Shown: positions 34,263 through 53,483, numbered from the stretch's first letter. The stretch is DNA of 53,483 nt from a bacterium (GCA_002686365.1 NZBZ01000020.1:1-53483); one strand, 5' to 3'. The notes: generated by a model from the sequence alone, not told the origin. Program-made: numbers and translations.

Positions 34263-35615
34263 ATGAGAGATCTTCCGTGGTTTAGCATATCGAGATTTTT
34301 TCTCTATATTACGCCGTTGGCGCTTGTTATTGTTACAGCATCAACGCTGTTTCCTTTTATTGTAGGAAAGTACGTTTGGTTTCGTACATCAGTTGCTTTA
34401 GCACTTATCTTTTTTTTGATTGGAGTCCTTTTTGAAAGTGAAGAGGGAGAGGAATATTTAAGGAAAATAGGCAGAATTTTAAAAACTCCCCTTGGAATTG
34501 CAGTAACTGCCTTTACCGCAATATTTATTATTGCGGGAATTTTCGGTCTCCGTCCAGGCTACTCCTTCTGGTCTAACTTTGAACGAGGCGAGGGAGGCCT
34601 CCAAATGCTGAATCTCTATATATTTTTCATTTTGCTTATTACGCTCTTAAGAAAAGAAAGCGAGTGGAGAAAGCTTTTTTGGGTAGTATTATGGACAGCG
34701 CTTCTTATGATACTGTATGGCTTAGGAGCCGGACTTGGATACAATGGATTTATCGGAGCAGAATTCGGTAAGGACTTTTCACGTTTTTATGGGTCTTTGG
34801 GGAACCCAGCCTACATGGCAGGATTCTTAATCTTCTCTTCGTTTTATGCAGTCTACATTCTTACAACGAGATATCGAAAACATCTCTTCTCTCATCCAGG
34901 AGCAGTATTTATCTGGCTGCTCCTTGGAATCTATGCAGTAATCTTTCTTTTGGCGGCAACACGAGGCGCCTTCCTTGGAATTATTGGGGGAGCATTTTTG
35001 GGACTCGGCTACGTTGGTTTTGTAAAAAGATCTTGGAGAAAGTGGGCAATCACAATCATAATATTTCTTGCAATCACAGCAGGAACACTTATAGCATTTA
35101 AAAATTCAGAGTTTGTAAAAAAGATTCCAGGCTCCCGTATTTTTGATATATCACTTTCAACAACCACATTTCAGCATAGAACAATTATGTGGAAGGTGGC
35201 ATTGGATTCTTGGAAAGAGCGGCCTATCCTTGGGTGGGGACCGGAAAGTTTCGGCGTCCTGTTTCAGAAAAATTTTAATCCAGACTATTTTGATCCAAAA
35301 GGAAGTTTTGGCGCGTGGTTCGACAGAGCGCACAACATCTTGTTCGACTACCTCGTATCAACCGGCATTCTCGGCACACTGGCATACATGGCAATCTTCG
35401 CAACTATATACTGGAAGATATTTCGAAGGAAGATAGAGGAGCAGACAGGCCTTTCTTCAGGAATTGCAGCCCTCGCTCTTGCTATGCCAACTGCCTACCT
35501 TGTTCAGGGTCTAGTGCTTTTTGACGTGCTTTCTATATATCTAAATCTCTTTATATTTTTTGCTTTTGCGTGGTTTTTATTTTATTTCAAAGATGAATAT
35601 GAATCCCTCACATAA
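34263..35615 (+). CDS. O-antigen ligase-like (Wzy_C) membrane protein, second paralog
   Basis: WSNFERGEGG, GSLGNP, AATRG, HRTIMW..KERPILGWGPESF, DRAHN. Confidence 0.88.
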   Translation: MRDLPWFSISRFFLYITPLALVIVTASTLFPFIVGKYVWFRTSVALALIFFLIGVLFESEEGEEYLRKIGRILKTPLGIAVTAFTAIFIIAGIFGLRPGYSFWSNFERGEGGLQMLNLYIFFILLITLLRKESEWRKLFWVVLWTALLMILYGLGAGLGYNGFIGAEFGKDFSRFYGSLGNPAYMAGFLIFSSFYAVYILTTRYRKHLFSHPGAVFIWLLLGIYAVIFLLAATRGAFLGIIGGAFLGLGYVGFVKRSWRKWAITIIIFLAITAGTLIAFKNSEFVKKIPGSRIFDISLSTTTFQHRTIMWKVALDSWKERPILGWGPESFGVLFQKNFNPDYFDPKGSFGAWFDRAHNILFDYLVSTGILGTLAYMAIFATIYWKIFRRKIEEQTGLSSGIAALALAMPTAYLVQGLVLFDVLSIYLNLFIFFAFAWFLFYFKDEYESLT

Positions 35616-35700
35616 CCCATGGAAACAACTACCATATCGTCGAAAACATGTTGGCTGTACACGTCCAAAAAATCTTGGAATGTGTACGTTATGTGAGGGA
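35604..35700. mobile_element. Start-codon palindromic element, family B (TCCCTCACATAAC...GTTATGTGAGGGA), flanked by TGAA
   Basis: 13-bp terminal IR; leader ORF 35599-35703. Confidence 0.75.
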
Positions 35701-36311
35701 TGAAAAAAGTTCTTAAAAACGCAATAATTCTTGCAGTAATCGTACTCGCCATTTTAGGAGTGTATTTTGGGTCTATAAGAGCTTTTATAAAAGGGAAAAG
35801 GTATATTGAGGCGTTAGGCAGAAGAGGGCAGATCGAGTCCACAGAGGAGTTTAGAGAGAATTGGAAATACGCACTCGACTATCGCGCCCCAATTTCAGAT
35901 GATGAGATAATTAAGTTTTTAAGTGGAGACATAGTAAACATGGCCTCAGCAGGAGAACAGCCTGAAGAGGTTATGATGAGTTTAATCTCATTTATTGAAG
36001 AGTACATAGATCAAAACGATGTTCTTCATATACTAAATATTGGAAGAACATATCATTTTATGTGGGTTAACTACGAACACAAAGAAGAATACTATATAAA
36101 AGCAGAGGAGTATTATGAAAAAGTTTTGGAAATAGGGCCAAAGCTTCCTCCAGCGCTTTATGGAATACTCGATCTTTATAGAGTAAAAGGCGATGCAAAG
36201 AATGCGAAAAAGTATGGAGAGATGGCATTTGAGCTATGGCCTCAGGATGAACGTCTAAAAGAAATACTTGAAAAAATAGAAGAGATAGAAGCATCAGCGC
36301 AGGCGCAGTAG
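35700..36311 (+). CDS. Membrane-anchored TPR protein
   Basis: N-terminal TM helix, TPR-like AEEYYEKVLEIGP; resembles the C-terminal half of 30402-32759. Confidence 0.8.
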   Translation: MKKVLKNAIILAVIVLAILGVYFGSIRAFIKGKRYIEALGRRGQIESTEEFRENWKYALDYRAPISDDEIIKFLSGDIVNMASAGEQPEEVMMSLISFIEEYIDQNDVLHILNIGRTYHFMWVNYEHKEEYYIKAEEYYEKVLEIGPKLPPALYGILDLYRVKGDAKNAKKYGEMAFELWPQDERLKEILEKIEEIEASAQAQ

Positions 36312-36415
36312 GTCTCTCGAATAAATAGCAAAAAAGTAATTACATATTGTCGAAAACATTTTATACAATACACGCGCAATTAGTTCTTGTGCTTGTAGTT
36401 TATAGAAGAGATGAA

Positions 36416-36510
36416 TCCCTCACATAACTTGGGATAGAAAACACATGCTTACAGTCGAAAACATTAATAGTACACACACAAGAAAACCTTGGAGTGTGTT
36501 ATGTGAGGGA
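36416..36510. mobile_element. Start-codon palindromic element, family B
   Basis: Same IR, TGAA flanks; leader ORF 36445-36513. Confidence 0.75.
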
Positions 36511-37307
36511 TGAAAAAAGAAAAAATCGGAATAATTGGACTAGGGTATGTTGGGTCTCCGGTGCAAAAGTGGTTTAGGGATAAGGGGCATGAGGTCTTTC
36601 AGTACGATAAGTTCAAAAATAAAGGATCTATAAAGGAGGTAAACAAAGCTGATATTATTTTTATTGCTGTACCAACTCCATTTAATGAAAAAGATAAGGG
36701 GCATGATATATCCGCAGTAGAGGAGTCAGTAAAAAACATAGAGGACAATAAAATAATAATTATAAAATCAACTATTGTCCCCGGCTCCACAAAAAAAATC
36801 CAAGAAACATATCCAAAGAAAACAATTCTTTACAATCCTGAATTTCTACGCGCAAAAACCGCAGAAAAAGACTATCTGAATCCAAAAATGCAGATATTAG
36901 GATATGCAAATAAAAAAGGAAAAGAAAAAGCGCCGAATATTCTTGAGATTCTTCCAAAAGCAGACTTTTCTAAAATTACAACCTCCACAGAAGCAGAAGT
37001 CATTAAGTACTTTATGAACTCTTTTCTGGCAACAAGAGTTATATTCGCAGAAGGGATACATGATCTATGTAAGGCTTTGGGAGATGCAGACTATGATGTG
37101 GTAAAAGGATGCGTTATAAAGGACAAGAGAATAGGACATAGCCACTTTGATATTCTAGCTGACGGCTATCGTGGATATGGCGGAGCCTGCCTGCCAAAAG
37201 ACACTAAGGCGCTTATAGAGCGTGCTGAGGAGCTTGGAGTAGACCTCGACCTCATAAAAAAAGTAGATGAAATAAACGAGAAACTTCAAAGAAAAAAACC
37301 TGAGTAG
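36510..37307 (+). CDS. UDP-glucose/GDP-mannose dehydrogenase family protein lacking the C-terminal domain
   Basis: GLGYVG, FIAVPTP, IKST, YNPEFL, KYFMNSF, GYGGACLPKD. Confidence 0.88.
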   Translation: MKKEKIGIIGLGYVGSPVQKWFRDKGHEVFQYDKFKNKGSIKEVNKADIIFIAVPTPFNEKDKGHDISAVEESVKNIEDNKIIIIKSTIVPGSTKKIQETYPKKTILYNPEFLRAKTAEKDYLNPKMQILGYANKKGKEKAPNILEILPKADFSKITTSTEAEVIKYFMNSFLATRVIFAEGIHDLCKALGDADYDVVKGCVIKDKRIGHSHFDILADGYRGYGGACLPKDTKALIERAEELGVDLDLIKKVDEINEKLQRKKPE

Positions 37308-37499
37308 AATATCATAGACTGAGTTGTTATGCAGTAAAAAGTCCTCAACAAAATCTGTTGAGGATTTTTGCGCACAAAAAGCCCTTAAAAATTGACTTTT
37401 TAGCTAAAATATCGTAAAAAGTAAACCGAGCCAAACACTGGTTCAGATCACAGTACGTTTACAGTACAGGAAACACCGAACAGAAAGAGGAGAGAGCAA

Positions 37500-38198
37500 G
37501 TGAATCTACAGGCAGACCCACAGAAGATCAGACGCTTCTTCAAGGCATTCGAGGGACGACGACATCCCATGGAGATGAAGCTTCTCGAGGCAGCGAAGCT
37601 CGTAGGAGACTTCGAAAACGTCCGTCTGCACTGCCGGATTGAGGGGGCAATCGGCGAGATGCTTGCCGAAGTGTTAGGGCTAGACCCATACGATGGCCTG
37701 AGTCTAGTGCAGGCGTTCCTCGGCCACGACTATGACAAGCACATGGAACTGCATCCTGAGCACTTCACCCCACAGGAGCTGGAAGAAATCAAACGCGCCC
37801 GCAGCACCCTGTGCCTGGATGAGGTTCTCTTGGCAGCAACCAAGCCGGAGTTCGCAGTACGCTGGATGCATGAGCACGATGATATCAGTCTCCTCGAGCA
37901 GCTCATGCACTACGTTGACTCCATCTGCAAAGACGACGACATCGTCCCGCTCATGGAACGAATCGCCGAGGTGGAGAGACGGAAGCCCCAGAGAACTGCA
38001 GAGTTCTGGGATGCCTTAGGTCAGAGAAGGTACTGGGATGTGGAGCGTGAGATGGGTCAGGAGGAGGAGCACAGAATTTGGGAGCTCCTCACTGCCGCAG
38101 GCTGCGAGATCGAGAGCCCAGAGCAGGTGCCCGCATGGATACGTTCGGAACTCGAGGCACGGATCGCAGCATATGTCCCTCCAGAGGACGCTCAGTAG
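37500..38198 (+). CDS. HD-domain-like protein, GC-rich
   Basis: LHC...A..LA..LGL....L..AFLGHDYDK and later HYVD; SD GAGGAG; GTG start; terminator 38248-38280. Confidence 0.65.
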   Translation: MNLQADPQKIRRFFKAFEGRRHPMEMKLLEAAKLVGDFENVRLHCRIEGAIGEMLAEVLGLDPYDGLSLVQAFLGHDYDKHMELHPEHFTPQELEEIKRARSTLCLDEVLLAATKPEFAVRWMHEHDDISLLEQLMHYVDSICKDDDIVPLMERIAEVERRKPQRTAEFWDALGQRRYWDVEREMGQEEEHRIWELLTAAGCEIESPEQVPAWIRSELEARIAAYVPPEDAQ

Positions 38199-38377
38199 GT
38201 TCTGCTGCGCGCAGCCCCACTAAGCTGCACAGAGTCGAAAACACAACACCCTACAGAGGAATCTGTAGGGTCTTTTCTTTATTAAGGGGGCACTAGGGGT
38301 TTTGTTTTGAAGTTTTTAGCATATGCCTGTAAAATTCAGCATATAGTAGATTATTAGGGTCAGAAGCCCTGTTTTTC

Positions 38378-41562: not shown

Positions 41563-41687
41563 GAGTCGCGCGATGCGCGATGAATTCGAATCAGGGCTTC
41601 CCACAGGGAAGTCCATTTTTTTATCCTCATAAACAAGCAGCATATTTTGACCTTTCCGTGTATTTCAGTTAAATTAAAACCTATGAA

Positions 41688-41808
41688 TCCCGTTAGAGAC
41701 AGCCAAATATTAGATATATTGCATACTGTAGTCACAAGACAGTCGTTATTGCACAGTCAACAAAAAACATCACAGACGTGTTTTAAACACGCTCTGTCTC
41801 TAACGGGA
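41688..41808. mobile_element. Start-codon palindromic element, family A (TCCCGTTAGAGACAG...CTGTCTCTAACGGGA)
   Basis: 15-bp IR, TGAA flanks; leader ORF 41683-41811. Confidence 0.75.
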
Positions 41809-42236
41809 TGAAAATAAAGAGACTACAACCAGAGTGCAACTTAGATACTATCCGAGATGGGCGGGGCGGTATTTTTACCTTTCATTCAGATAAGCCCATT
41901 GTTGAATTTAATTTCCAATTCATCAATAAGGGTAAGATACGGGGAAATCATTATCACCCGGAGTTTGATGAGTACTATCTCTTTACTGAAGGGAATGGTG
42001 TTATGGTGACGAAAAATGATAAGGGCGAGGAGGAGTTTCTCTATGTAGGAACCGGAGACTGTATATTTATTCCTCTGGGAGTTTCTCATGTAACCTATGC
42101 AATCACTGACATCAAGTATGTGACCTTTCTTACAAAAAAATGGGATGACTGCGAAAAACCGATTGTGCATGAGGACTTGGGAATGGGCAAGGGAAGCCAT
42201 GGGGAGCCGGACTATAAGGGTCCAAAACAGAAATGA
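41808..42236 (+). CDS. Cupin-fold NDP-sugar isomerase/epimerase (FdtA/WxcM-like)
   Basis: DGRG, RGNHYH, cupin second motif P.GVSH. Confidence 0.75.
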   Translation: MKIKRLQPECNLDTIRDGRGGIFTFHSDKPIVEFNFQFINKGKIRGNHYHPEFDEYYLFTEGNGVMVTKNDKGEEEFLYVGTGDCIFIPLGVSHVTYAITDIKYVTFLTKKWDDCEKPIVHEDLGMGKGSHGEPDYKGPKQK

Positions 42237-43992: not shown

Positions 43993-43998
43993 AATGAG

Positions 43999-44124
43999 TC
44001 CCGTTAGAAGTAGCAAAGCAAACTAAATATGCTCAAACATAAATCCACAACAAAACAAAGTCGTACAAACCATAGTGTAAGCTACGGTTTTGTGTGTAGC
44101 GCACAAAAACTACTTCTAACGGGA
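43999..44124. mobile_element. Start-codon palindromic element, family A variant, flanked by TGAG on both sides
   Basis: TCCCGTTAGAAGTAG...CTACTTCTAACGGGA; leader ORF 44029-44127. Confidence 0.78.
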
Positions 44125-45365
44125 TGAGCAAGACAGAAAAAAGCAGAGCTGTTACGCACTGCCAAATATGCGATAAAACGCCTCTGGACTCGATCCTATT
44201 TTTAGGATATCTTCCGCCAGTAAATGATTTTCATCCAATCGGCGAAAGGCCAAAAGAGGAGCCTAGTTATCCGGCAGAAGTTCTCTACTGTGATAGATGC
44301 CATCTGGTTCAGTCCGGTCTTATTGTGGATCCAAAGGTTATCTTCCCCTCATCATATCCATACACATCAAGTACAACTAAGGCGCTTAGGGATAACTTTG
44401 CCGAGTTATATAAAGAATGCACCTCATTATATGAGGTGGGGGCTGATGATCTTGTAATTGATATTGGATCAAATGACGGAAATCTCTTAAGCAATTTCAA
44501 GGAAAAGCATAAGGTGCTGGGAGTAACTCCAGAGGATATTGGAAAAATTGCAGTTGAGAGAGGTATTCCAACAATCATAGATTACTTTACAAAAGAGCTG
44601 GCAGGAAAAATAAAAGAAGAACATGGAAAGGCAAAAATTGTTACTGCCACAAATACATTCGCGCACGTTGATGATGTAAATGATGTTGCGGAATCTGTTC
44701 TTGAGATACTGCAGGACGATGGAATCTTTATTACAGAATCTCACTACATCTTATCAATGATGGAGATGAATCAGTTTGACACCATCTACCACGAGCATCT
44801 ACGGCACTACTCGCTCCACAGTCTGCAGTATCTTTTTGAACTGCATGGGATGGAAATAATTCACGCAAAGAAAATTCCGTCTCATGCCGGATCAATACGA
44901 GTCTATGCTGCAAGAAAGGGGAAGCATCCAATACTTGATACAGTAGCCCCGCTTCTTGAGGCGGAAAAAAACACCATCTTAAAAAAAGAACATCTGCTTG
45001 AATTCCGCAAAAGAGTGATTCTGACAAAGCTTGAGCTCGCATCTCTTCTCTACAATATTAAAAAAGAGGGGAAGCGAATCTATGGCATTGGAGCGCCGTC
45101 AAGGGGTACCACGCTAATTCATTATGTTGGCATTGATGAGGGAATCATTGACTGCACGCTTGAGATAAAGGGCTCTCAAAAAATGGATAAGTTGGTTCCG
45201 GGAACACTAATGCCCGTCTTGGAAGAGTCAAAGCTTTTCACAGATCAGCCAGAGTATGCGTTTATATTCGCATGGAACATTGCTGATACTCTTGTAAGCA
45301 AGCTAAGAGAAAAGGGATTCAAGGGGAAGTTTATCGTGCCCTTGCCCACTCCAAGGATAATTTAG
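44124..45365 (+). CDS. NDP-hexose C-methyltransferase (zinc-binding N-terminus plus SAM domain)
   Basis: C..C...LG..P..N..., C..CHLVQ, YPYTS, IDIGSNDG, YHEHLRHYS, YGIGAPSRG, FAWN. Confidence 0.88.
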   Translation: MSKTEKSRAVTHCQICDKTPLDSILFLGYLPPVNDFHPIGERPKEEPSYPAEVLYCDRCHLVQSGLIVDPKVIFPSSYPYTSSTTKALRDNFAELYKECTSLYEVGADDLVIDIGSNDGNLLSNFKEKHKVLGVTPEDIGKIAVERGIPTIIDYFTKELAGKIKEEHGKAKIVTATNTFAHVDDVNDVAESVLEILQDDGIFITESHYILSMMEMNQFDTIYHEHLRHYSLHSLQYLFELHGMEIIHAKKIPSHAGSIRVYAARKGKHPILDTVAPLLEAEKNTILKKEHLLEFRKRVILTKLELASLLYNIKKEGKRIYGIGAPSRGTTLIHYVGIDEGIIDCTLEIKGSQKMDKLVPGTLMPVLEESKLFTDQPEYAFIFAWNIADTLVSKLREKGFKGKFIVPLPTPRII

Positions 45366-45431
45366 GGGCTTGCCCCTCACATAATGCATTGAGTAGGGGC
45401 TTGCCCCTCACATAATACGTTATGTGAGGGG
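45363..45431. repeat. Minimal family-B palindrome CCCCTCACATAA-TACG-TTATGTGAGGGG (45404-45431) with a 23-bp direct duplication
   Basis: TAGGGGCTTGCCCCTCACATAAT at 45363-45385 and 45394-45416. Confidence 0.85.
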
Positions 45432-45475: not shown

Positions 45476-46699
45476 ATGGATAGAAAGTATGACCTTTGCA
45501 TTATAGGAGGGGCTGGCCATGTTGGTCTTCCTGTAGGAGTAGCATTTGCAAATGGCGGAGTAAAGACCGCTCTTTTTGATATAAACAAGATATCGCTTCA
45601 GCAGATTCAGGGAGGAAAGTTTCCATTTAAAGAAATAGGCGGAGATGAGGCGCTTCAGAGTGCGCTAAAAAGCGGAAACTTGTCTACAGTAGACTCGCCC
45701 GAGGTAATAGCACAGTCAAAATTCGTTTTAGTTGTTCTTGGCACTCCAATTGATGAGAACCTAAGCCCTCAGTTTGACGGTATCCTGCGGGCAATTGACC
45801 GATATATTAACTACTTTCAGGATGATCATATTATTATTCTAAGAAGCACGGTCTATCCCGGAACAACGGAAAAAATCCAAAACTACTTTCGCGAAAAGGG
45901 CAAGAATGTGCAGGTAACATTCTGTCCGGAGCGTATTACGCAAGGCCATGCCATAGAAGAGATAAAGGTACTGCCTCAAATCGTTTCAGCATTTGATGAG
46001 GATGCGTTAAAAAAGGTTTCAGACTTATTTAGAAAAATTACTAAGGCAAATATTATTTCTGTAAAGCCAATTGAGGCAGAGCTCGCAAAGCTGTTCACAA
46101 ACGCGTGGCGGTATATAAAATTCTCTGTGGCAAATCAGTTTTTTATGATAGCCCAAGAGCATGACTTGGATTACGAGAGTATTGAGAGAGCAATGAAGGA
46201 GGATTATAAGAGAAATCAGGATTTGCCGTCTCCGGGGCTTACAGCAGGACCATGCCTTTTAAAGGATACGATGCAGCTTGCTGCTTTTACTAACAATAGT
46301 TTTATGCTGGGACATGCGGCAATGCTTGTGAACCAAGGATTTGTAAACGACATGATTCGTCTGTTGAAGCGTGAATACGCTAAAGAACTTAAGGAAAAAA
46401 CGCTGGGAATCTTAGGCATGGCATTTAAGGCAGATAGTGATGACCATAGAGACTCACTCTCATACAAGATACAAAAAATAGCACACGTAGAATGCAAAAA
46501 AGTATTATGCAGTGACCCATACATAAAAGATCCGGATTTTGTTTCCAAGGATCACGTTCTTGAGAACTCGGATATTGTAATTCTTGCTGCTCCTCACGAG
46601 GAGTATTCGCACATTAATCCAAAAGACCATCCGCGCATTAAGTTTGTAGACGTATGGAACTTCTGGAAAAAGCCGCGTGAGAATGCGCAAAGTTCGTAA
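45476..46699 (+). CDS. Nucleotide-sugar dehydrogenase (UDP-Glc/GDP-Man/UDP-ManNAc dehydrogenase family)
   Basis: GGAGHVGLP, RSTVYPG, FCPER, AGPCLLKD, GMAFK..SDD.R.S. Confidence 0.9.
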   Translation: MDRKYDLCIIGGAGHVGLPVGVAFANGGVKTALFDINKISLQQIQGGKFPFKEIGGDEALQSALKSGNLSTVDSPEVIAQSKFVLVVLGTPIDENLSPQFDGILRAIDRYINYFQDDHIIILRSTVYPGTTEKIQNYFREKGKNVQVTFCPERITQGHAIEEIKVLPQIVSAFDEDALKKVSDLFRKITKANIISVKPIEAELAKLFTNAWRYIKFSVANQFFMIAQEHDLDYESIERAMKEDYKRNQDLPSPGLTAGPCLLKDTMQLAAFTNNSFMLGHAAMLVNQGFVNDMIRLLKREYAKELKEKTLGILGMAFKADSDDHRDSLSYKIQKIAHVECKKVLCSDPYIKDPDFVSKDHVLENSDIVILAAPHEEYSHINPKDHPRIKFVDVWNFWKKPRENAQSS

Positions 46700-46723
46700 A
46701 TCATTTAAAATAATACATATGAA

Positions 46724-46844
46724 TCCCGTTAGAGACAGTCAAATATTAGATATATTGCATATTGCAGTCACCAGACAGTCGCTATGGTACAGTCAACAAA
46801 AAACATCACAGATGTGTTTTAAACACACTCTGTCTCTAACGGGA
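46724..46844. mobile_element. Start-codon palindromic element, family A
   Basis: Co-linear with 41688-41808 with scattered substitutions; leader ORF 46719-46847. Confidence 0.78.
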
Positions 46845-47827
46845 TGAAAATTTTAATAACAGGAGGCGTTGGATTTATCGGTCTTCATCTAACAAAGCAT
46901 CTTTTGCAGAATGAGGACAATGAAATCACGCTTGCAGACAACTTTTTTCGCGGAGAAAAAGATAAAGAACTGGAGGAGATTTTAAAGAATGACAGAGTAA
47001 CTCTAATCGAGCTTGACCTTACAAATAAGGATGAGTATGAAAAGCTTGGAAATGGATATGATTATATCTATCATTTAGCGGCAGTAAACGGAACCAAGTA
47101 CTTCTATGAAATGCCTGAGGAGGTACTTCGAATAAACATTCTCTCTCTCATCTACATACTTGAATGGATGAGGAGCGAAAACAAAGAGGGGAAGCTTCTA
47201 TTTACCTCATCAAATGAGGCCTATGCAGGAGCAATTGAAGCATTTGGGAAGCTGCCAATTCCAACTCCGGAAAATGTACCGCTTGTTATATCAGATGTTT
47301 ACAATCCTCGCTGGTCCTACGCAGGCACAAAGCTCATTGGCGAGCAGTTTGTTATTCACTACGCAGAAAAATATAAACTAAAAGCAGTAATTGTACGCCC
47401 GCACAACTTTTTTGGTCAAAGAGCGGGCTTCTCACACGTTATTCCGGAGTTTGCCTTGAGAATCGCAGATAAAAAAGACCCGTTTGAAATCTTTGGTACT
47501 GAAGAAACAAGAACATTCTGCTATATAGAAGATGCAGTAGAAGCAATGAAGCTCTTGATGGAAAGTAAAAATACAGATACGCATCCAATTGAGACAGTCC
47601 ACATTGGAGGAGAAGAAGAAATAACAATGGAAGGGCTTGCTGAAAAAATGTTTGAGAGCGCTGGATGGAGACCAAACAAAATTGAGAAAAAAGAAGCGCC
47701 AAAGGGAAGCGTGAAGCGAAGAAAGGCAGACATCACAAAAATTAAAAAACTTGTTGGATGGACACCTAAGACTGCTCTTAAGGAGGGGCTCAAAAAAACC
47801 TACGACTGGTATGCATTACGTTCCTAG
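46844..47827 (+). CDS. NAD-dependent epimerase/dehydratase (extended SDR)
   Basis: TGGVGFIG, HLAAVN, FTSS, YAGTK (YxxxK), RPHNFFG. Confidence 0.92.
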   Translation: MKILITGGVGFIGLHLTKHLLQNEDNEITLADNFFRGEKDKELEEILKNDRVTLIELDLTNKDEYEKLGNGYDYIYHLAAVNGTKYFYEMPEEVLRINILSLIYILEWMRSENKEGKLLFTSSNEAYAGAIEAFGKLPIPTPENVPLVISDVYNPRWSYAGTKLIGEQFVIHYAEKYKLKAVIVRPHNFFGQRAGFSHVIPEFALRIADKKDPFEIFGTEETRTFCYIEDAVEAMKLLMESKNTDTHPIETVHIGGEEEITMEGLAEKMFESAGWRPNKIEKKEAPKGSVKRRKADITKIKKLVGWTPKTALKEGLKKTYDWYALRS

Positions 47828-49410
47828 TTCGCCTTGCCACGCCGAAGCTTTGTTTTGAGGTACTGAATTGATTTAGAGAGAAGCGTCTGCATAAGGCGCT
47901 TTTCTTTTTCATCAAACCATAAAAAGTAGGTGTAGAGCATGCCGAGTATGGTAACTGTAATTCCGAGTCCTATAATCATAAACCAGAGATTAGTTATTGC
48001 GGAAGATAGGATCCAGCCCGCAAGAAGCTGAAGCAGAAAGAGCGGCGCTCCTTTTACAACAAGAAAAACAAAATCTCTCTTTCTTGCCCGTATAACGCGG
48101 AGCGTATTAAGGGGAACAAACCAGAAGTTTATTCCAACCTCCCCAATTAAAAAGCCTAAGGCAACTCCGGCAAGCCCCATGGGCTTAATGAGAACAAGCG
48201 CCAGCAGAAGGCCAATGACAATAGAGGTGATTCGAGAAGCCGCGTACTTGTTGTACTTATTAATAGCAACCTGAAATACAGCATTCGACTCCCATATAGC
48301 GGTTATGGGAATAAGGATAAGAAGAAAGATCCAAAGAGACGGATCAAGGGCAACCTTCCCTCTGGTCCAAAACCGGAGAATATCTTCTCCGCCAAAGAAT
48401 AAAAAGATAGTCGCGGTTATCGAGACAAACAGAATAAACTTCATGAAAAGACTATGAATTCTCCGAAGTTTTTGGTACTCTCCGCGAATTTCTCCGGCAG
48501 TAAGTTCGGGAAGAATAGCGGGAGTTATAACGCTTACAAAGCGTTTTGCTATGTGAGAGAGGGTGCGATGGACACTAAAAACCACAACTTTTGAGGCGCC
48601 AAACACAGCACCGATTAGTATTACGCTTCCCTGCACGTATATCATTCGAGAAAAAGGAATAAGAAGGAAGACGAACCCCGGCTTCAAAAAACTTTTTGCA
48701 AGGCGCCAATCAATACTCACCATTCCGAGGCTCTTTCTGATTTCCGGATGGCGTCTTTGTATATCAAGGCCCGCAAACAATGTAATCCCAATTAGGGTAA
48801 GGAGATAGACGAGCGCAACACTTATAAACTCTCCTCCAAGCACTAAGACAATAACAACAAATAACATCAGAATCAGTTCACGAATGTTGCGAATTGCCGC
48901 CTGCCGAGGATACTCTCCAATTGTGGTATATAAACTGCCCACAAGTCCGCTTAAAACTCCTAAAAGAATATACAGCCCCAAGATAAAAACAGTGATCCGA
49001 ACAGATATTTCTCCGGCAGTATGGATATCAAACAGTTCAAAGAAGGGGAAGAAAATAGCGAGAGCAATGAGAATAATAAAAAAAACAGCGAATATAGAAC
49101 TAAATATTCCAAAAGCGCTTTTTAGTATACGGGCATATTCTTTATGGGCGCCTTTGGCATAGGCCTGAGTAAGACGATTTCTTATATAAGTTCCCATGCC
49201 AAAGTGCGAGGTAGAGAGGTATGCAAGAAGAGAAGAGAGGATAAGCCATTCTCCATATAGCGCCTTGTCCCACGCCCAGAGGAAGATTGGGATAAATACT
49301 ATCTGCTGAAAAACCGTAACTAAATATCCGAGGATATTCATAAAACTGCCAAGCGCAGTTCTCTTGGTTGTTCCGCCTACTGGATAAAGTTTTGCTGAAG
49401 AAGACTTCAT
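47824..49410 (-). CDS. Wzx/MOP-superfamily oligosaccharide flippase
   Basis: ~12-14 TM; YGEWLIL..LL.YL....FG; G...VVVFS... Confidence 0.8.
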   Translation of the reverse strand: MKSSSAKLYPVGGTTKRTALGSFMNILGYLVTVFQQIVFIPIFLWAWDKALYGEWLILSSLLAYLSTSHFGMGTYIRNRLTQAYAKGAHKEYARILKSAFGIFSSIFAVFFIILIALAIFFPFFELFDIHTAGEISVRITVFILGLYILLGVLSGLVGSLYTTIGEYPRQAAIRNIRELILMLFVVIVLVLGGEFISVALVYLLTLIGITLFAGLDIQRRHPEIRKSLGMVSIDWRLAKSFLKPGFVFLLIPFSRMIYVQGSVILIGAVFGASKVVVFSVHRTLSHIAKRFVSVITPAILPELTAGEIRGEYQKLRRIHSLFMKFILFVSITATIFLFFGGEDILRFWTRGKVALDPSLWIFLLILIPITAIWESNAVFQVAINKYNKYAASRITSIVIGLLLALVLIKPMGLAGVALGFLIGEVGINFWFVPLNTLRVIRARKRDFVFLVVKGAPLFLLQLLAGWILSSAITNLWFMIIGLGITVTILGMLYTYFLWFDEKEKRLMQTLLSKSIQYLKTKLRRGKAN

Positions 49411-50177
49411 AGGTTGTTCTGCAGGAACTGAAAAATAATATTCGCATTCTCCTCCCTAGGCTTCCTAGTGTCTATATTAATAAAGGGAGTTGTATTTGTT
49501 TTTTCCAAAATACCAACAATTTTTTTCTTGTTCTCAATATAGTTTTTAAGCATATCACGGTATATATTTCTTGCCTCCTCGCTTTGTCTCAGGCCTTCAC
49601 GGGATTCCTCTGAACCATTCGCTGTTTTTCCAGCAGAAATAAGTCGATTGATAGCTATATCTGCCGGCGCACCAGCAAAGATAAAAATTGTAGTAAGGTC
49701 TTTCCATAAAATTATATTCACCATATCTTTCAGCACAGGATCAAGTTTATGAGAATCAATACGGGAAAAAACAGAATTCCATACAGACTCATCAAAAAGG
49801 TATATATCTGCCTTATTACGCCGTATGAGAAAATTTTGAATAACATAGATGCGGAGAGTATTAAGACACAGCACCAAATCAGTACGACTAAGACGCCACG
49901 GACCAAGTTTGAGAAGAATCAGAAGAATCAATTTGAGAAGAATCAGAAGGACTTTTAATGATGATAAACTCTTAACAGCATAGAGGAGTGGAAGTGTATG
50001 CCTCTTTAGCTTACTGTGGCTTAAAAAGTCCGACTTCTGCATCCAAGCCCAGGATACAAAATTAGAGCCTCGATCATTCATTACGCGCCCTACTTCATGC
50101 GCAACCGCAGTCTTCCCAACGCCAGACATCCCCACAAACACCACGCACAGCTTCTTTCTTTTTGGCAAGTTATCCAT
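49407..50177 (-). CDS. P-loop NTPase, nucleotide-kinase-like
   Basis: GMSGVGKT Walker A; LFDES; AINRL lid-like segment. Confidence 0.7.
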   Translation of the reverse strand: MDNLPKRKKLCVVFVGMSGVGKTAVAHEVGRVMNDRGSNFVSWAWMQKSDFLSHSKLKRHTLPLLYAVKSLSSLKVLLILLKLILLILLKLGPWRLSRTDLVLCLNTLRIYVIQNFLIRRNKADIYLFDESVWNSVFSRIDSHKLDPVLKDMVNIILWKDLTTIFIFAGAPADIAINRLISAGKTANGSEESREGLRQSEEARNIYRDMLKNYIENKKKIVGILEKTNTTPFINIDTRKPREENANIIFQFLQNNL

Positions 50178-50178
50178 C

Positions 50179-51828
50179 TTATTTTATTAAACGTCTGATA
50201 ATAAGCTCCTTTATCTTAGAGGTAAACATAATCCTATTATATGTTGTAGATTTCAGGAACAAGCTGATCTTTTGAAAAAATGAAGGAGTAAATTTTTTGT
50301 GTAAATCATCTACAGTTTTTCTAATCGATTCCATTTCTTTGGGGAAACAGACACGAGCATACTCCCATGCTTCATTTGTATTATCCGTAGAATGGATAAA
50401 GCTGCCGAATTTCTCATCATCAAACTTGCTTCGCATCCTCTTTTTCAGAAGGCTGATTCCATGATATGTTCCTGATCCCATATGTTTTGATTTCATATAC
50501 AAAAAATGCAAATCTAAAACAATAATTGCTGCGCGAGGGAAAAAAAGCGTTTCCTTTCCAGGGCCTCCTCCATCATACCAGTTTCCTCCTCGTAGAGAAT
50601 CAGCAACAACCTTGCGTTCCTTATCACTAAGACGCTTATGACGAACAATATGAAACCTTTCTTTTTTTATGGCATCGAGTATTGGGTGGAATAGTCCCTG
50701 CTGAAATGCCTTTTCTTTTACTATAAAGACACCCAAGCCCATCTCTTTAACATTAGCTCGAGAGAAAAATCTTTGCTTTACCCACTTATTCCAGCCGGCA
50801 ATTCGCGCTAAGGAATCAATGCGCGGACGCCAGCCCTCATTATCTAAATATTCATCAAGCGCCTCCATATTTATATCAACATCTATATTTGCGTCCTTAG
50901 CCATTTTCTGGAGAATACCAGCATAATCACTTTTAGAATTATGAGAAGCAGTTACATTGGGCGTAGTGCTTGGTACGCCAGCCTCTGCGCCCTTGTGATA
51001 CAAAACATGGTAGGTGAAGCTTAAAAACAACTCCTTTGGAGCAGGTATTCGGGATCCAGCCGGACCCTGACGAGCGCTATCCAGAATTTTTCGCGCTATG
51101 GGCGGGGGATAGTATGGCGCATCACTATGCTGTAGACCGGAGACAGACCACATATCTATCTTAATAGAGCCTCGTCGCCGTTCAAGAAAGTCTGTCACCC
51201 TAGGAAGATCCTTATCAGAGACCAGCATGTCTAAATCTCCATCCTTACGATGCAGACGCGGCAGCTTCTCAAAAAACCGCAAAATAACATAGTCAATATT
51301 CTCCTCGCGCAGATAATCCAAAAATCCCTGGACGCCAACCTTTTCTGACAGAGTAAAGCTCGCCCGAAGTTTAGAATTTGAAATTTTCAGCACGAGCCAT
51401 TTTCTGGACTTTCCACGTGCTGGAATTTTGCGTACTCCCTCAATTTTCACCTGCCCTCTTACGATACGTCTTAAGAGGCCGGGAATTCCCAGAATCCAAG
51501 ACGCGCGAGGACGAAGACGCACAAGTATATATTTTGGGCGAGTGGGGAGCCGAATAAACAAAGCTCGAACTGATTTCTTATCCAAAAAACACACCTCATC
51601 ATCACTATGATGTATGTCCGCAATATTCTTATATATATGAAAAGAAAAGTTGTCTGGAGACGCAGTTTCTTTTTTTAATTTGCGCGAAAATATTCGGATT
51701 TGACCAAACTTTTTTCGCATCAGTATTGCAGGAAAATCCTTTTCTAAACAGTCATATAGACCAATATCCCCATGTTCTATGAGGTAATTAAGCAGGTCGT
51801 TATTATCACGATTAGTCAAGTTGTGCAT
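50179..51828 (-). CDS. Multidomain protein: nucleotidyltransferase-like middle plus NDP-kinase-like C-terminus (ORF track starts at 51873)
   Basis: GDLDMLV; GVFIVKE.A...GL...I...I....F.IV; IHSTDNTNEA; TATAAT 6 nt before ATG 51828. Confidence 0.55.
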   Translation of the reverse strand: MHNLTNRDNNDLLNYLIEHGDIGLYDCLEKDFPAILMRKKFGQIRIFSRKLKKETASPDNFSFHIYKNIADIHHSDDEVCFLDKKSVRALFIRLPTRPKYILVRLRPRASWILGIPGLLRRIVRGQVKIEGVRKIPARGKSRKWLVLKISNSKLRASFTLSEKVGVQGFLDYLREENIDYVILRFFEKLPRLHRKDGDLDMLVSDKDLPRVTDFLERRRGSIKIDMWSVSGLQHSDAPYYPPPIARKILDSARQGPAGSRIPAPKELFLSFTYHVLYHKGAEAGVPSTTPNVTASHNSKSDYAGILQKMAKDANIDVDINMEALDEYLDNEGWRPRIDSLARIAGWNKWVKQRFFSRANVKEMGLGVFIVKEKAFQQGLFHPILDAIKKERFHIVRHKRLSDKERKVVADSLRGGNWYDGGGPGKETLFFPRAAIIVLDLHFLYMKSKHMGSGTYHGISLLKKRMRSKFDDEKFGSFIHSTDNTNEAWEYARVCFPKEMESIRKTVDDLHKKFTPSFFQKISLFLKSTTYNRIMFTSKIKELIIRRLIK

Positions 51829-51910
51829 AGTGTGATTATAGGGATAGAAAGAGGCGAAATCAACCGATTTCATAGTTGTAAGTTATTAAAAGCTTTTGTA
51901 TAATCTGGCT

Positions 51911-53290
51911 GTGAAGGAGACTAAAGGAAAAATAAAAAGTTCATTCAGGGATCCTAGCGGATATCTTTTTGAAAAAAACGGAATATTATACCGTGGAATT
52001 GCAGAAAGCTATAAAGAACACTACGAATACGCGAAAAAATGCGGATTTTTTGAGGAGTTGATAAAGGATGGACACCTCATATCGCATAAGGAGGTGGACT
52101 CTAATATTGCAGACAGAGACGTATACAAAGTTATTGAGCCAAAAAGAATACCATTTATCTCCTATCCTTATGAGTGGTGTTTTAGCGAACTTAAAGACGC
52201 AGCCCTTTTAACACTGAAAATTCAAAAAAAGGCGCTCCAATCAGGAATGACTTTAAAAGACGCAAGCGCCTACAACATACAATTTCTGGACGGCAAGCCA
52301 ATACTAATAGACACGCTCTCGTTTGAAAAATATGAGGAGGGCGCGCCATGGATAGGGTATCGGCAGTTCTGTGAGCACTTTTTAGCGCCGCTTGTTCTCA
52401 TGTCTTATAAAGATGTACGGCTGAATACACTAATGCGTATTTTTATTGACGGCATACCGCTTAAACTTGCAAGCGAACTTTTGCCTCGACGAACACTGTT
52501 AAAGCCGTCAACTGCCTTTCATATACATCTTCATGCAAAAAGTCAGGAAAAATTTTCAAAAAAAGAACAAAAGACAACATGGCGAATTTCGAAACACAAG
52601 CTTACAGCTCTCTTAGATAGCTTGGAAAAGGCAGTACAAAAAACAAAGATAAAGAAACAAAGTACAGAATGGGCGGATTATTATGAAGATACAAACTATT
52701 CTTCCGACTCCTTCAAAGAAAAGGAAAGTATTATATCTGACTTTATAAAAAAAACATCTTCAAAAACCGCTTGGGATCTTGGGGCAAACACCGGAGAATT
52801 TAGCAGATTAGCGAGTGAAAAAGAAATCAAAACCGTCTCCTTTGATATTGATCCTATAGCTGTTGAAAAAAACTATCTTACAGTAAAGCGAAAGAAAGAA
52901 AAAAATCTGCTTCCTCTCGTGCTTGACCTTACAAATCCAAGTCCTGATATTGGCTGGAATAATGAAGAACGAATGTCGTTTAGTAGGCGGGGTCCTGTTG
53001 ACCTTGTTTTGGCGCTTGCATTAATCCATCACATTGCCATCTCAAACAACACGCCTCTTAGCATGGTGGCAGAAAGTTTGAGCAAATTATGTACACATCT
53101 GATAATTGAGTTTATTCCAAAGTCAGACTCTCAGGTAAAGAGGCTGTTAAAGACTAGAGAAGATATATTTTTGAATTATAATGAGAAGGCCTTTGAAAAA
53201 GAATTCAGCAGATACTTTACGATAAGCGTAAAGAAAGGCATAAGCGGCTCAGAAAGGTCTTTGTACTTAATGATTAAAAAGAAATCATAA
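51911..53290 (+). CDS. NoeA-like protein: kinase-like N-terminus plus class I SAM methyltransferase (ORF track starts at 51896)
   Basis: SFRDPSG, LKDASAYNIQF, IDTLSF; WDLGANTGEFS; ALALIHH. Confidence 0.75.
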   Translation: MKETKGKIKSSFRDPSGYLFEKNGILYRGIAESYKEHYEYAKKCGFFEELIKDGHLISHKEVDSNIADRDVYKVIEPKRIPFISYPYEWCFSELKDAALLTLKIQKKALQSGMTLKDASAYNIQFLDGKPILIDTLSFEKYEEGAPWIGYRQFCEHFLAPLVLMSYKDVRLNTLMRIFIDGIPLKLASELLPRRTLLKPSTAFHIHLHAKSQEKFSKKEQKTTWRISKHKLTALLDSLEKAVQKTKIKKQSTEWADYYEDTNYSSDSFKEKESIISDFIKKTSSKTAWDLGANTGEFSRLASEKEIKTVSFDIDPIAVEKNYLTVKRKKEKNLLPLVLDLTNPSPDIGWNNEERMSFSRRGPVDLVLALALIHHIAISNNTPLSMVAESLSKLCTHLIIEFIPKSDSQVKRLLKTREDIFLNYNEKAFEKEFSRYFTISVKKGISGSERSLYLMIKKKS

Positions 53291-53297
53291 ACATGAA

Positions 53298-53394
53298 TCC
53301 CTCACATAACCCATGGAGACAACCACCATATCGTCGAAAACATGTTAGCTGTACACGTCCAAGAAATCTTGGAATGTGTACGTTATGTGAGGGA
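53298..53394. mobile_element. Start-codon palindromic element, family B
   Basis: Co-linear with 35604-35700 with few substitutions; leader ORF 53293-53397. Confidence 0.78.
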
Positions 53395-53483
53395 TGAAGA
53401 ATTGGATTACAAAACTGTTGTATTTACTGCAGGCTATTCTGCAAAAGAGGGATAAGGCCTGCCCATACTGCCTTTATTCTCCG
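53394..53483 (+). CDS. Partial CDS running off the window (MKNWITKLLYLLQAILQKRDKACPYCLYSP)
   Basis: Open frame from the element-regenerated ATG to the window end; CxxC present. Confidence 0.55.
   Translation, partial: MKNWITKLLYLLQAILQKRDKACPYCLYSP

What the first reader, a model, noticed from the sequence alone, without database searches (positions are those of the whole stretch)
35599..53397. Start-codon-targeting palindromic elements that rebuild the ATG and carry a translationally coupled leader ORF
Seen: six 95-126 bp elements (35604, 36416, 41688, 43999, 46724, 53298) in two sequence families share one design, A-TGAR-[TCCC...GGGA]-TGAR. The element's last A regenerates the ATG of the downstream gene. 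The flank is TGAA/TGAA at five sites and TGAG/TGAG at 43994/44124, which is what a target-site duplication predicts. In all six, a short ORF (22-42 codons, hand-translated) ends ...GGA TGA, overlapping the regenerated ATG (ATGA). Four start at the original ATG (e.g. MNPVRDSQ...SLTG*, MNPSHNPW...LCEG*). In the two copies where that frame hits an early stop, an internal ATG (36445, 44029) lies in the coupling frame. Inference: a MITE-like or recombination element that inserts at start codons without silencing genes in a largely SD-less genome, by translational re-initiation. It may tune expression or mark module boundaries in the glycan locus. I do not know of a description of this, but cannot verify novelty.
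Basis: partly seen in the sequence, partly recalled or inferred. Interest (0 to 1): 0.9.

Follow-up and report, generated by a model that had tools for sequence, protein, structure and literature searches.

The report
Nuclease-derived mini-transposons sitting on start codons
The six short palindromic inserts are real: they are gene-less, cut-down copies of a roughly 280-bp mobile element whose only gene is a tiny GIY-YIG nuclease, and the whole family lands exactly on gene start codons and rebuilds them, a type of bacterial mobile DNA I could not find described in the literature.

Summary
Observation confirmed. All six elements (97, 95, 121, 126, 121 and 97 nt) sit at the stated coordinates as A|TGAR-[TCCC…GGGA]-TGAR. 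The element's last A rebuilds the host ATG.

The genome (888 kb, a CPR/Paceibacteria-type MAG) holds 28 such copies in three inverted-repeat families. All lie at start codons, in one orientation, and their 4-bp flanks co-vary (TGAA, TGAG, TGAT, TGGA).

New here: two 277–287-nt copies with the same ends encode a 94–95-aa GIY-YIG nuclease. Its ORF borrows the host ATG. The short copies are internal-deletion derivatives of these long copies.

Empty sites exist. dnaA in 28 relatives, and orthologues of two window genes, lack the element. One relative carries an independent insertion at the dnaA start.

The same 277-nt element occurs in dozens of CPR, Omnitrophota and other MAGs.

The coupling frame is little more open than other frames (14/25 against 10, 10, 10). 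It is open in about a third of relatives' copies. It is largely a relic of the nuclease ORF.

Published precedents are MIRUs (start-codon insertion with a coupled ORF) and Ssn nucleases with flanking hairpins. Neither describes this family.

The parts
35604..35700 (+). Family-A short element (97 nt). Old ATG 35599-35601, TSD TGAA at 35600-35603 and 35701-35704, rebuilt ATG 35700-35702 of a 203-aa gene. The upstream Wzy_C-like ORF now ends at TAA 35613-35615, inside the left IR.
36416..36510 (+). Family-A short element (95 nt). Old ATG 36411-36413, TSD TGAA, rebuilt ATG 36510-36512 of a UDP-glucose dehydrogenase-like gene. The leader from the old ATG stops after 8 codons; the internal ATG at 36445 gives a 22-codon ORF ending ATGA.
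41688..41808 (+). Family-B short element (121 nt). Old ATG 41683-41685, TSD TGAA, rebuilt ATG 41808-41810 of a 142-aa gene. 42-codon leader ORF ending ATGA.
43999..44124 (+). Family-B short element (126 nt, variant IR TCCCGTTAGAAGTAG). Old ATG 43994-43996, TSD TGAG at 43995-43998 and 44125-44128, rebuilt ATG 44124-44126 of a C-methyltransferase gene. Orthologues in five relatives have no element at this junction.
46724..46844 (+). Family-B short element (121 nt). Old ATG 46719-46721, TSD TGAA, rebuilt ATG 46844-46846 of an NAD-dependent epimerase gene (Rossmann motif at residues 7-13). Orthologues in five relatives have no element.
53298..53394 (+). Family-A short element (97 nt, 94% identical to the copy at 35604). 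Old ATG 53293-53295, TSD TGAA, rebuilt ATG 53394-53396 of a 277-aa gene that runs past the window end.
45373..45431 (.). Related short hairpin of IR-A sequence (CCCCTCACATAAT-AC-GTTATGTGAGGGG), preceded by a half copy. It lies just after the methyltransferase stop codon and has no TSD. It is one of about 8 such REP/NTS-like hairpins in the genome.

Best explanation
The six elements are non-autonomous, MITE-like internal-deletion derivatives of a roughly 277-287-bp mobile element whose only gene is a 94-95-aa single-domain GIY-YIG nuclease.

Shown:
- Long and short forms share 13-16-bp terminal inverted repeats (TCCC…GGGA).
- Both forms lie in one orientation at 5'-N|TG-R-N start codons with a 4-bp duplication (TGAA, TGAG, TGAT or TGGA).
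- The element's terminal A plus the duplicated TG recreates the host start codon.
- The nuclease ORF has no start codon of its own. It begins at the host's old ATG and reads through the left IR (MNPVRD / MNPSHN). In family B it ends at the TGA of the duplicated target, overlapping the rebuilt ATG.
- The short copies keep the two IRs, a GTCGA box (the former S-R-E codons of the nuclease) and a truncated inner hairpin next to the right IR.
- Empty orthologous sites exist, and so does an independent insertion at the same start codon in another genus.

Inferred:
- The nuclease, which resembles the published ssDNA-hairpin nucleases (Ssn), mobilises both forms in a strand-specific way, acting on the hairpin formed by the IRs.
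- The host gene stays expressed because ribosomes that start at the old ATG translate into the left arm of the stem. This frees the rebuilt AUG, whose A and U are paired at the stem base. This is the RNA-unfolding type of translational coupling.
- Termination-reinitiation at ATGA works only in the copies whose relic ORF is still open. A full-length leader ORF is therefore helpful but not required.
For: Census:
- 24 strict copies plus 4 family-C copies. All have ATG upstream, and all are followed by an ORF that starts at the rebuilt ATG.
- 24/25 short copies carry the GTCG box on the sense strand.

Long copies:
- The long copies at C18:16759-17045 and C20:73980-74256 encode GIY-YIG proteins (PF01541, E about 1e-16). 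The closest solved structure is UPF0213 BH0048, PDB 1ZG2.
- Short family-A copies align to the 3' third of the long A copy.
- Long B copies in four genera are all 277 nt. Their amino acids are conserved while third codon positions vary, so the protein is under selection.
- IR positions 5-13 co-vary: 9.8 Watson-Crick pairs with an element's own partner against 5.3 with shuffled partners.

Insertion events:
- dnaA starts ATGAA/ATGGA with no element in 28 relatives. G014 carries a different IR family at its dnaA start, with TSD TGGA.
- Orthologues of the window genes at 44124 and 46844 are empty.

Targeting:
- After in-silico excision, ATGRN sites number 426 at gene starts, 1005 intergenic and 8368 in coding sequence. 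Even so, 28/28 copies are at starts.

Spread:
- The pattern is present in 26/61 relatives, with 0 control hits.
- The nuclease has 377 relatives at 63-84% identity across Paceibacterota, Saccharibacteria, Omnitrophota, Elusimicrobiota and others. 45 of 74 complete loci show the same NTG|TGAR-TCCCGTTAGAG…CTCTAACGGGA-TGAR layout, and 34 have an intact ORF ending ATGA.

Expression logic:
- The stem includes the A and U of the rebuilt AUG.
- The genome is SD-poor, with a peak of -10-like boxes 6-9 nt before start codons.
- Essential genes (dnaA, eno, rplI, rpmC, yidC, ftsI) tolerate the insertion.
- The RNA-unfolding model of coupling is reviewed in PMC12548453.
Against: - No transposition or nuclease activity has been observed. 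GIY-YIG enzymes are hydrolytic and no known DNA transposase uses this fold, so how strands are rejoined and how a 4-bp duplication arises is unexplained.
- Only two intact nuclease genes with these IRs are present, for 26 short copies. Family C has no autonomous partner in this 91%-complete assembly.
- The published Ssn-related hairpin motif (SRM) does not match these elements.
- There are no expression data.
- 11 of 28 copies have an early stop in the leader. In relatives about two thirds do. If ribosomes must reach the new ATG, those copies should silence their genes, yet they sit on intact genes.
- The 4-bp versus 5-bp duplication cannot be settled, because the IR always begins with T and ends with A. 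GTGAA/TTGAA left flanks in relatives fit 4 bp but could be post-insertion decay.
Confidence: 0.8

Rival explanations
1. The element is designed around a leader ORF that runs from the old ATG to a TGA overlapping the rebuilt ATG. Termination-reinitiation through this full ORF is what keeps the host gene expressed and is maintained by selection.
For: 17 of 24 strict copies here have an ORF from the old ATG that ends at ATGA (12 copies) or at a TGA 6 nt before the ATG (5 copies). The right IR of family A carries stops in two frames next to the ATG. Frame 0 is the most open frame (14/25, against 3.5 +/- 1.6 in shuffles). MIRUs are described as working this way.
Against: Other frames are almost as open (10, 10 and 10 of 25). 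All five family-C copies and 7 of the 24 strict copies stop early. Only about 9-11 of 33 short copies in relatives are open. The peptides are relics of the nuclease ORF, so their openness can be inherited rather than selected.
Confidence: 0.3
2. The GIY-YIG gene spreads as a homing-type or template-copying element, and the nuclease does not itself excise and insert DNA. The nuclease only breaks or nicks empty ATGRN targets. Host repair or replication template-switching then copies the element in, and the short copies hitch-hike because they keep the recognition hairpin.
For: GIY-YIG enzymes are known as homing endonucleases and are hydrolytic (established knowledge). 63-84% identity across phyla fits horizontal spread. 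All copies lie in one orientation.
Against: Homing needs long flanking homology, but here there are at least 28 unrelated target genes. All four variant flanks are duplicated on both sides, as a staggered cut with fill-in predicts and microhomology copying does not. The 95-aa protein has no DNA-binding domain of the homing-endonuclease type.
Confidence: 0.2
3. The nuclease is a domesticated host protein, like Neisseria SsnA, that acts on hairpin repeats to modulate recombination or transformation. The palindromic elements are its genomic binding sites, spread by another or extinct mechanism, and are not its mobile derivatives.
For: Ssn nucleases are 94-aa GIY-YIG proteins flanked by, and specific for, hairpin repeats present in hundreds of copies (PMC11893778). 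This genome also has about 8 short IR-A hairpins without a TSD.
Against: The IRs bracket the ORF exactly, and the ORF lacks its own start and stop. The short copies are deletion derivatives of the gene itself. The identical 277-nt unit recurs at different start codons in many phyla. The SRM motif is not met.
Confidence: 0.1
4. These are cis-regulatory RNA leaders (riboswitch, thermosensor or attenuator) or integron-like cassette recombination sites that evolved in place in the glycan locus.
For: They form stable hairpins directly in front of genes. Six of them cluster in 18 kb of a glycan locus (P = 0.005). The IRs contain GTTA/TAAC cores that faintly recall attC sites (from the sequence).
Against: There is no Rfam match. 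The same elements sit on dnaA, eno and ribosomal protein genes. Flank duplications and empty orthologous sites show that they are insertions. The interior is a decayed protein gene.
Confidence: 0.03

Closest known systems
Ssn site-specific ssDNA nucleases with flanking NTS/SRM hairpin repeats (Chenal et al. 2025, Nat Commun, PMC11893778)
   Same: A single-domain GIY-YIG protein of about 94 aa. The gene is bracketed by hairpin-forming repeats whose stems start at TCCC…GGGA (dRS3/NTS is ATTCCC-N8-GGGAAT). Many gene-less copies of the hairpin are spread through the genome. Action is strand-specific. The authors themselves note that the NTS-ssnA-NTS layout looks like an insertion sequence.
   Different: Their SRM consensus does not match these elements. 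NTS repeats are 20-30-bp hairpins around genes, not 95-287-bp units with a TSD. No start-codon targeting, borrowed start codon or deletion-derived mini-copies are described. The closest solved relative here is UPF0213 (1ZG2), and membership of the CDD family cd10448 could not be tested.
Mycobacterial interspersed repetitive units, MIRUs (Supply et al. 1997, as summarised in PMC12548453)
   Same: Short repeated elements described as inserting at start codons, so that an ORF inside the element is coupled to the host gene with a -4 (ATGA) overlap. This is thought to minimise the effect on host expression.
   Different: From my own knowledge, MIRUs are direct repeats that often form tandem arrays. 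They have no terminal inverted repeats, no 4-bp TSD and no known autonomous, nuclease-encoding parent. They are found in Actinobacteria, not CPR.
Bacterial MITEs and their parent insertion sequences (e.g. Neisseria Correia elements; IS5/IS630-derived MITEs)
   Same: Terminal inverted repeats, short target duplication, multiple gene-less copies that share their ends with a coding partner, and presence/absence polymorphism.
   Different: The partner encodes a GIY-YIG nuclease, not a DDE, HUH, serine or tyrosine transposase. The autonomous unit is only about 277 bp, with no promoter, start codon or stop codon of its own. Insertion is restricted to start codons and to one orientation.
IS200/IS605 elements, their PATE derivatives and the REP/RAYT system
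   Same: Hairpin-based, strand-specific behaviour next to a short specific target sequence. Very small elements. Abundant gene-less palindromic derivatives.
   Different: There is no Y1 HUH transposase in the genome. IS200/IS605 elements make no target duplication and have subterminal hairpins rather than terminal IRs. Here the flanks are duplicated and co-vary.
Free-standing and intron-borne GIY-YIG homing endonucleases (I-TevI, Seg proteins), and GIY-YIG ORFs in non-intron insertions of CPR rRNA genes (PMC11270868)
   Same: The GIY-YIG catalytic domain in a selfish element, and insertion that spares host gene function.
   Different: Homing endonucleases carry a separate DNA-binding domain and home to one cognate gene by homologous repair. 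Here the protein is 95 aa, the targets are many unrelated genes, and there are a TSD and IRs.

Membership tests
MITE (non-autonomous inverted-repeat transposable element) | Terminal inverted repeats | tested here: met
   13-16-bp perfect or near-perfect IRs in all six. Co-variation is seen across 61 copies.
MITE (non-autonomous inverted-repeat transposable element) | Target-site duplication that varies with the target | tested here: met
   TGAA x24, TGAG x2, TGAT x1, TGGA x1, always identical left and right. TGGA is also seen at the G014 dnaA insertion.
MITE (non-autonomous inverted-repeat transposable element) | Occupied and empty sites among related genomes | tested here: met
   dnaA, the C-methyltransferase gene and the epimerase gene are empty in relatives.
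MITE (non-autonomous inverted-repeat transposable element) | An autonomous partner with the same ends that encodes a transposase | tested here: inconclusive
   Partners with the same IRs exist (C18:16759, C20:73980). They encode a GIY-YIG nuclease, whose transposase activity is unproven.
Ssn nuclease / SRM hairpin system | Single-domain GIY-YIG protein of about 94 aa | tested here: met
   PF01541 covers residues 9-76 of the 94-95-aa proteins.
Ssn nuclease / SRM hairpin system | Membership of CDD family cd10448 | not testable with these tools
   CDD is not available. The nearest PDB relative is UPF0213 BH0048.
Ssn nuclease / SRM hairpin system | Flanking repeats match the SRM consensus HGTCWYN(0-2)YYVSBRHN(0-5)WNVSBRGN(0-2)RNCYNB | tested here: not met
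   Five scattered hits in the genome, none in or beside any element.
Ssn nuclease / SRM hairpin system | Sequence-specific cleavage of ssDNA only | not testable with these tools
   Needs biochemistry.
IS200/IS605 / PATE / REP-RAYT | Y1 HUH transposase | tested here: not met
   PF01797 is absent from the genome; the search's positive controls were detected.
IS200/IS605 / PATE / REP-RAYT | No target duplication; subterminal hairpins | tested here: not met
   A 4-bp duplication and terminal IRs are present.
MIRU-type start-codon repeat | Insertion at a start codon with an internal ORF overlapping the host ATG by 4 nt | tested here: met
   12 of 24 strict copies, including 4 of the 6 in the window; the other 2 do so via an internal ATG.
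MIRU-type start-codon repeat | Direct-repeat units, often in tandem, without inverted ends | tested here: not met
   All copies are single and IR-bounded. The MIRU features are recalled from my own knowledge plus PMC12548453.
GIY-YIG homing endonuclease gene | Nuclease domain plus a separate DNA-binding domain, and one cognate target gene | tested here: not met
   Only the catalytic domain is present. At least 28 unrelated target genes.
Described structured RNA family (Rfam) | Match to a covariance model | tested here: not met
   No hit at E <= 1 in 35000-53483.

The most novel reading that the evidence does not exclude
The 94-aa GIY-YIG protein is itself the mobilising enzyme. On this reading the family would be a new mechanistic class of prokaryotic DNA transposon. 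It would be driven by a hydrolytic, hairpin-recognising and probably ssDNA- and strand-specific nuclease, not by a DDE, HUH, serine, tyrosine or Cas1 enzyme. At about 277 bp it would be the smallest autonomous mobile element known. It would have no promoter, start codon or stop codon of its own, because it parasitises functional start codons. The six window elements would be its MITEs, expressed through and tolerated by translational coupling.
Probability: 0.4. Interest if true: 0.92.

Novelty: new variant of a known kind. Interest (0 to 1): 0.78.

Why it matters
- If the nuclease moves these units, GIY-YIG joins the short list of enzyme folds that drive DNA transposition, and the lower size limit for an autonomous element drops to under 300 bp.
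- The family shows how a selfish element can invade essential genes (dnaA, eno, ribosomal proteins) in tiny, gene-dense, SD-poor genomes without killing them. It does this by borrowing and rebuilding the start codon.
- It is also practical. Gene callers will mis-place start codons and annotate spurious 'GIY-YIG family proteins' or short ORFs at these sites across CPR genomes.
- A start-codon-specific, hairpin-guided nuclease would be a useful tool enzyme, as the Ssn work suggests.
- For translation biology, the elements are natural experiments. A 13-16-bp stem is placed directly on a start codon in dozens of genes.

Tried and rejected
- Rfam scan of 35000-53483 at E <= 1: nothing, so no known RNA family.
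- The published SRM regex of the Ssn paper: no hit on the elements.
- Y1/HUH transposase search in the genome: absent.
I could not look for excision or empty alleles in reads, or for transcripts.
- A global MAFFT alignment of short against long family-B copies was uninformative, and a low-gap-cost pairwise alignment over-fragmented. Only the family-A alignment to the 3' third of the long copy was clear.
- I tested whether the base before TGAA is ever not A. Six real copies in relatives have G or T and none has C. This fits either GTG/TTG start codons with a 4-bp TSD or decay after insertion, so I left it undecided.
- A Shine-Dalgarno sequence inside the right IR (GAGGG, 1 nt from the ATG) was rejected because the spacing is too short. 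An internal promoter giving a leaderless mRNA at the rebuilt ATG was rejected because there is no -10-like hexamer at the right distance (sequence inspection).
- Intrinsic terminator function was rejected, because no T-run follows the stem on either strand.
- The integron attC reading was rejected because of the flank duplications and the housekeeping-gene targets.

Full report
**1. The observation**

Reading the sequence and an IR-based scan that ignores flanks confirm six elements: 35604-35700, 36416-36510, 41688-41808, 43999-44124, 46724-46844 and 53298-53394. They fall into two families by their terminal inverted repeats. Family A has TCCCTCACATAAC…GTTATGTGAGGGA. Family B has TCCCGTTAGAGACAG…CTGTCTCTAACGGGA, with a co-varying GAAGTAG/CTACTTC variant at 43999.

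Each element is flanked by A-TGAR on the left and TGAR on the right: TGAA five times, TGAG at 43999. The last A of the element plus the right-hand TG is the ATG of a long ORF.

The hand-translated leader ORFs are correct. Four ORFs of 34 or 42 codons run from the old ATG to a TGA overlapping the new ATG. Two stop early, but each has an internal ATG (36445, 44029) in the ATGA frame.

The terminal stems dominate the predicted folds (ΔG -28 to -43 kcal/mol, z -4.3 to -6.9). The A and U of the rebuilt AUG are the two pairs at the stem base. Rfam has no match.

**2. Genome-wide picture**

The window is C20:1-53483 of an 888-kb, 21-contig, 43% GC genome. A strict search finds 24 copies with ATG-RN|TCCC…GGGA|TG-RN. 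Four more belong to a third family, C (TCCCTMACYCTTGGCGCAT…ATGCGCCAAGAGTGAGGGA).

- Every copy has an ORF starting at the rebuilt ATG. The host genes include dnaA, eno, rplI, rpmC, yidC, ftsI and an RNase J-like gene.
- The flank is TGAA in 24 copies, TGAG in 2, TGAT in 1 and TGGA in 1, always the same on both sides. This is what a real target duplication predicts.
- All copies have the same internal orientation relative to the gene. GTCG is on the sense strand in 24/25 short copies and CGAC in 2. Because the ends are symmetric, either orientation would rebuild the ATG. The uniform orientation therefore points to a strand-specific process, or to selection on the interior.
- After in-silico excision I counted ATGA[AGT]/ATGGA sites: 426 at called gene starts, 1005 in intergenic DNA away from starts, and 8368 inside coding sequence. 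If insertion were random and only gene-disrupting copies were purged, about 30% should be at starts. The observed figure is 28/28.
- The six window copies are modestly clustered (six in 18 kb, P = 0.005 by permutation).

**3. The parent element**

Two copies are long. C18:16759-17045 is 287 nt with family-A ends and TSD TGGA. C20:73980-74256 is 277 nt with family-B ends, 20 kb beyond the window. From the host's old ATG each carries an ORF of 95 or 94 codons that is a GIY-YIG catalytic domain (PF01541, E 3e-16 and 6e-16). The two proteins are 43% identical. The nearest solved structure is UPF0213 BH0048, PDB 1ZG2.

The left IR encodes residues 2-7 and the right IR encodes the C-terminus. The family-B ORF stops at the TGA of the duplicated target (ATGA). 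The family-A ORF stops at the TGA inside the right IR, 6 nt before the ATG.

The short family-A copies align to the last third of the long A copy. The alignment runs through the …AYSREH… codons (the conserved GTCGARA box), then a shortened version of the hairpin that precedes the right IR, then the IR itself. The short elements are therefore internal-deletion derivatives. Their 'leader peptides' (…NAYSREHYNA…LCEG) are what is left of the nuclease.

I found the nuclease link before consulting the scan's earlier notes.

**4. Evidence that these are insertions and that the family is mobile**

- dnaA orthologues in 28 relatives begin ATGAA/ATGGA with ordinary upstream DNA. In this genome the family-B element lies between the old and the new ATG.
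- In G014 an element of a different IR family (TCCCGATAGTGTC) sits at the same codon with TSD TGGA, matching that genome's ATGGAC start.
- Orthologues of the window's C-methyltransferase and epimerase, in syntenic loci of five relatives, have no element.
- The pattern ATGAATCCC…GGGATGAA occurs in 26 of 61 genomes of the same family or order, and 0 times for the reversed control. It occurs in 8 of 150 genomes sampled across the phylum.
- A scan of species-representative genomes with the family-B nuclease found 377 relatives. The best 80 are 63-84% identical. They lie in Paceibacterota lineages (Jorgensen-, Lipton-, Kaiser-, Yanofsky- and Giovannonibacteria), Saccharibacteria, Microgenomates, Omnitrophota, Elusimicrobiota, a Planctomycetota MAG and a Woesearchaeota MAG.
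- In 45 of 74 complete loci I recovered NTG|TGAR-TCCCGTTAGAG…CTCTAACGGGA-TGAR, mostly exactly 277 nt. Thirty-four have an intact 93-95-codon ORF ending ATGA, usually followed by an ORF open to the end of the 600-nt flank.
- Four long B copies from different genera differ mostly at third codon positions while keeping the protein, so the nuclease is under purifying selection. Their IR arms change in step: GAGACAG/CTGTCTC, GAGGCA/TGCCTC, GAAAT/ATTTC.
- Over 61 copies, positions 1-4 of the stem are invariant. Positions 5-13 are 90-100% paired with 2-4 pair types each.

**5. How the host gene is expressed**

The genome is SD-poor. Only 17% of 618 crude gene starts have an SD-like 4-mer. There is a peak of -10-like hexamers ending 6-9 nt before the ATG, which suggests many leaderless or near-leaderless mRNAs.

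I tested this in three ways:

1. 17/24 strict copies have an ORF from the old ATG that ends at or 6 nt before the new ATG. None of the five family-C copies does.
2. In the interior (IRs excluded), frame 0 is open in 14/25. Frames +1, r0 and r1 are each open in 10/25, and the other two frames in 4/25. Shuffles give 3.5 ± 1.6. The sequences are stop-poor in general, and the coupling frame is only slightly better.
3. In short copies from relatives, only about 9-11 of 33 are open to the end. Two are fused in frame to the host protein.

Together with the descent from a coding sequence, this makes the full leader ORF a relic and not a conserved device.

What every copy does keep is the old start codon followed by at least six sense codons across the left IR. 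A ribosome starting there must melt the terminal stem and so exposes the rebuilt AUG. This is the RNA-unfolding form of coupling reviewed in PMC12548453. I consider it the most likely mechanism, with reinitiation as a bonus where the ORF survives. It is inference: no transcript or ribosome data could be obtained.

**6. Comparison with what is known**

- *Ssn.* The closest published system for the protein is the Ssn family. SsnA of N. meningitidis is a 94-aa GIY-YIG enzyme that cuts only ssDNA next to a hairpin repeat (NTS, core ATTCCC-N8-GGGAAT). Most homologues are flanked by such repeats, and the authors remark that NTS-ssnA-NTS looks like an IS (PMC11893778). Their degenerate SRM motif does not hit my elements, and I could not test CDD membership.
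- *MIRU.* The closest published parallel for the behaviour is the MIRU, described as inserting at start codons with an internal ORF coupled at -4 (PMC12548453, citing Supply 1997). MIRUs have no inverted ends, TSD or nuclease parent.
- *IS200/IS605 and REP-RAYT.* These resemble the hairpin and strand logic, but there is no Y1 transposase here, and those elements make no duplication.
- *Literature search.* Full-text searches for GIY-YIG with transposon, MITE, start codon, CPR or UPF0213 terms found no description of this family. GIY-YIG ORFs in non-intron rRNA insertions of CPR are noted in PMC11270868.
- *Earlier notes of this scan.* They report the same family in many other genomes. They are unpublished AI notes. 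I used them only as leads and re-derived the claims here.

**7. Verdict**

It is incomplete about the element's origin, which is a GIY-YIG mini-element, and overstated about the leader ORF.

I file the finding as a new variant of a known kind: an IR/TSD mobile element with MITEs, and MIRU-like start-codon behaviour. There is a substantial chance (about 0.4) that it represents a new mechanistic class of transposon.

Noticed in passing
window 45373-45431; also C4:56773, C4:190517, C10:9607, C15:24414, C16:10331, C1:76632: Short 27-34-nt hairpins made of the family-A inverted-repeat sequence alone. They are often extended to CTTG…CAAG, have no TGAA duplication and are not at start codons. The one in the window sits right after the methyltransferase stop codon, with an extra half copy. 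They look like REP/NTS-type solo hairpins that the family-A nuclease might bind.
   Followed up: partly
genome contig C4:177184-177430 (outside the window): A third GIY-YIG gene (about 40% identical) lies between 8-bp direct repeats CATGAATT. It starts at a host-type ATGAA and ends …ACATGA over the next gene's ATG, but it has no TCCC/GGGA inverted repeats. Same start-codon architecture, without the hairpin.
   Followed up: partly
genome contig C18:99170-99640 (outside the window): A fourth GIY-YIG gene sits beside a tRNA gene (anticodon loop reads as Lys-TTT). It is preceded by a duplicated 5' half of that tRNA and by a palindrome TCCGCCAGCTGGCGGA that recurs after the tRNA. Possibly a tRNA-targeting relative.
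   Followed up: no
window 34263-35615: The upstream Wzy_C-like gene originally overlapped the next gene's start codon. After the insertion it ends at a TAA inside the left IR, with its last three residues replaced but its length unchanged. The left IRs of families A and B carry stops in both non-zero frames (TGA in the TSD; TAA or TAG in the IR).
   Followed up: partly
L022 (G012:C13:7187-7266) and L030 (G023:C3:337961-338043): In relatives, very short 71-74-nt copies are in frame with the host gene and have no stop. The old ATG would therefore give the host protein (one looks like topoisomerase I) a 25-residue N-terminal extension.
   Followed up: no
L175, L179, L139, L167 (genome-contig loci): Sub-variants of the 277-nt element end CCCC…GGGG. 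Two rebuild a GTG start. Two, in Ratteibacteria and Omnitrophota MAGs, are flanked by TTTA instead of TGAA and are not on a start codon, which suggests that target specificity has shifted in some lineages.
   Followed up: no
window 3990-4028 and 18074-18111: Two identical copies of a 38-nt perfect palindrome, CCAATGTATCAGTGTACTAGTACACTGATACATTGG(GA), lie 14 kb apart. They are unrelated to the TCCC…GGGA elements.
   Followed up: no
window 9719-11243: A unit of about 1.1 kb is repeated two to three times at 83-92% identity (repeat families D4, D7, D10, D12, D16). It contains a GC-rich hairpin GCCCCGCCTTGGCGGGGC and a tRNA-like GTTCGATCCCC segment.
   Followed up: no
window 36510-37307: The UDP-glucose dehydrogenase-like gene behind the element at 36416 is only 265 aa and lacks the C-terminal UDP-binding domain that its paralogue at 45476-46699 has. 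It may be truncated or split.
   Followed up: no
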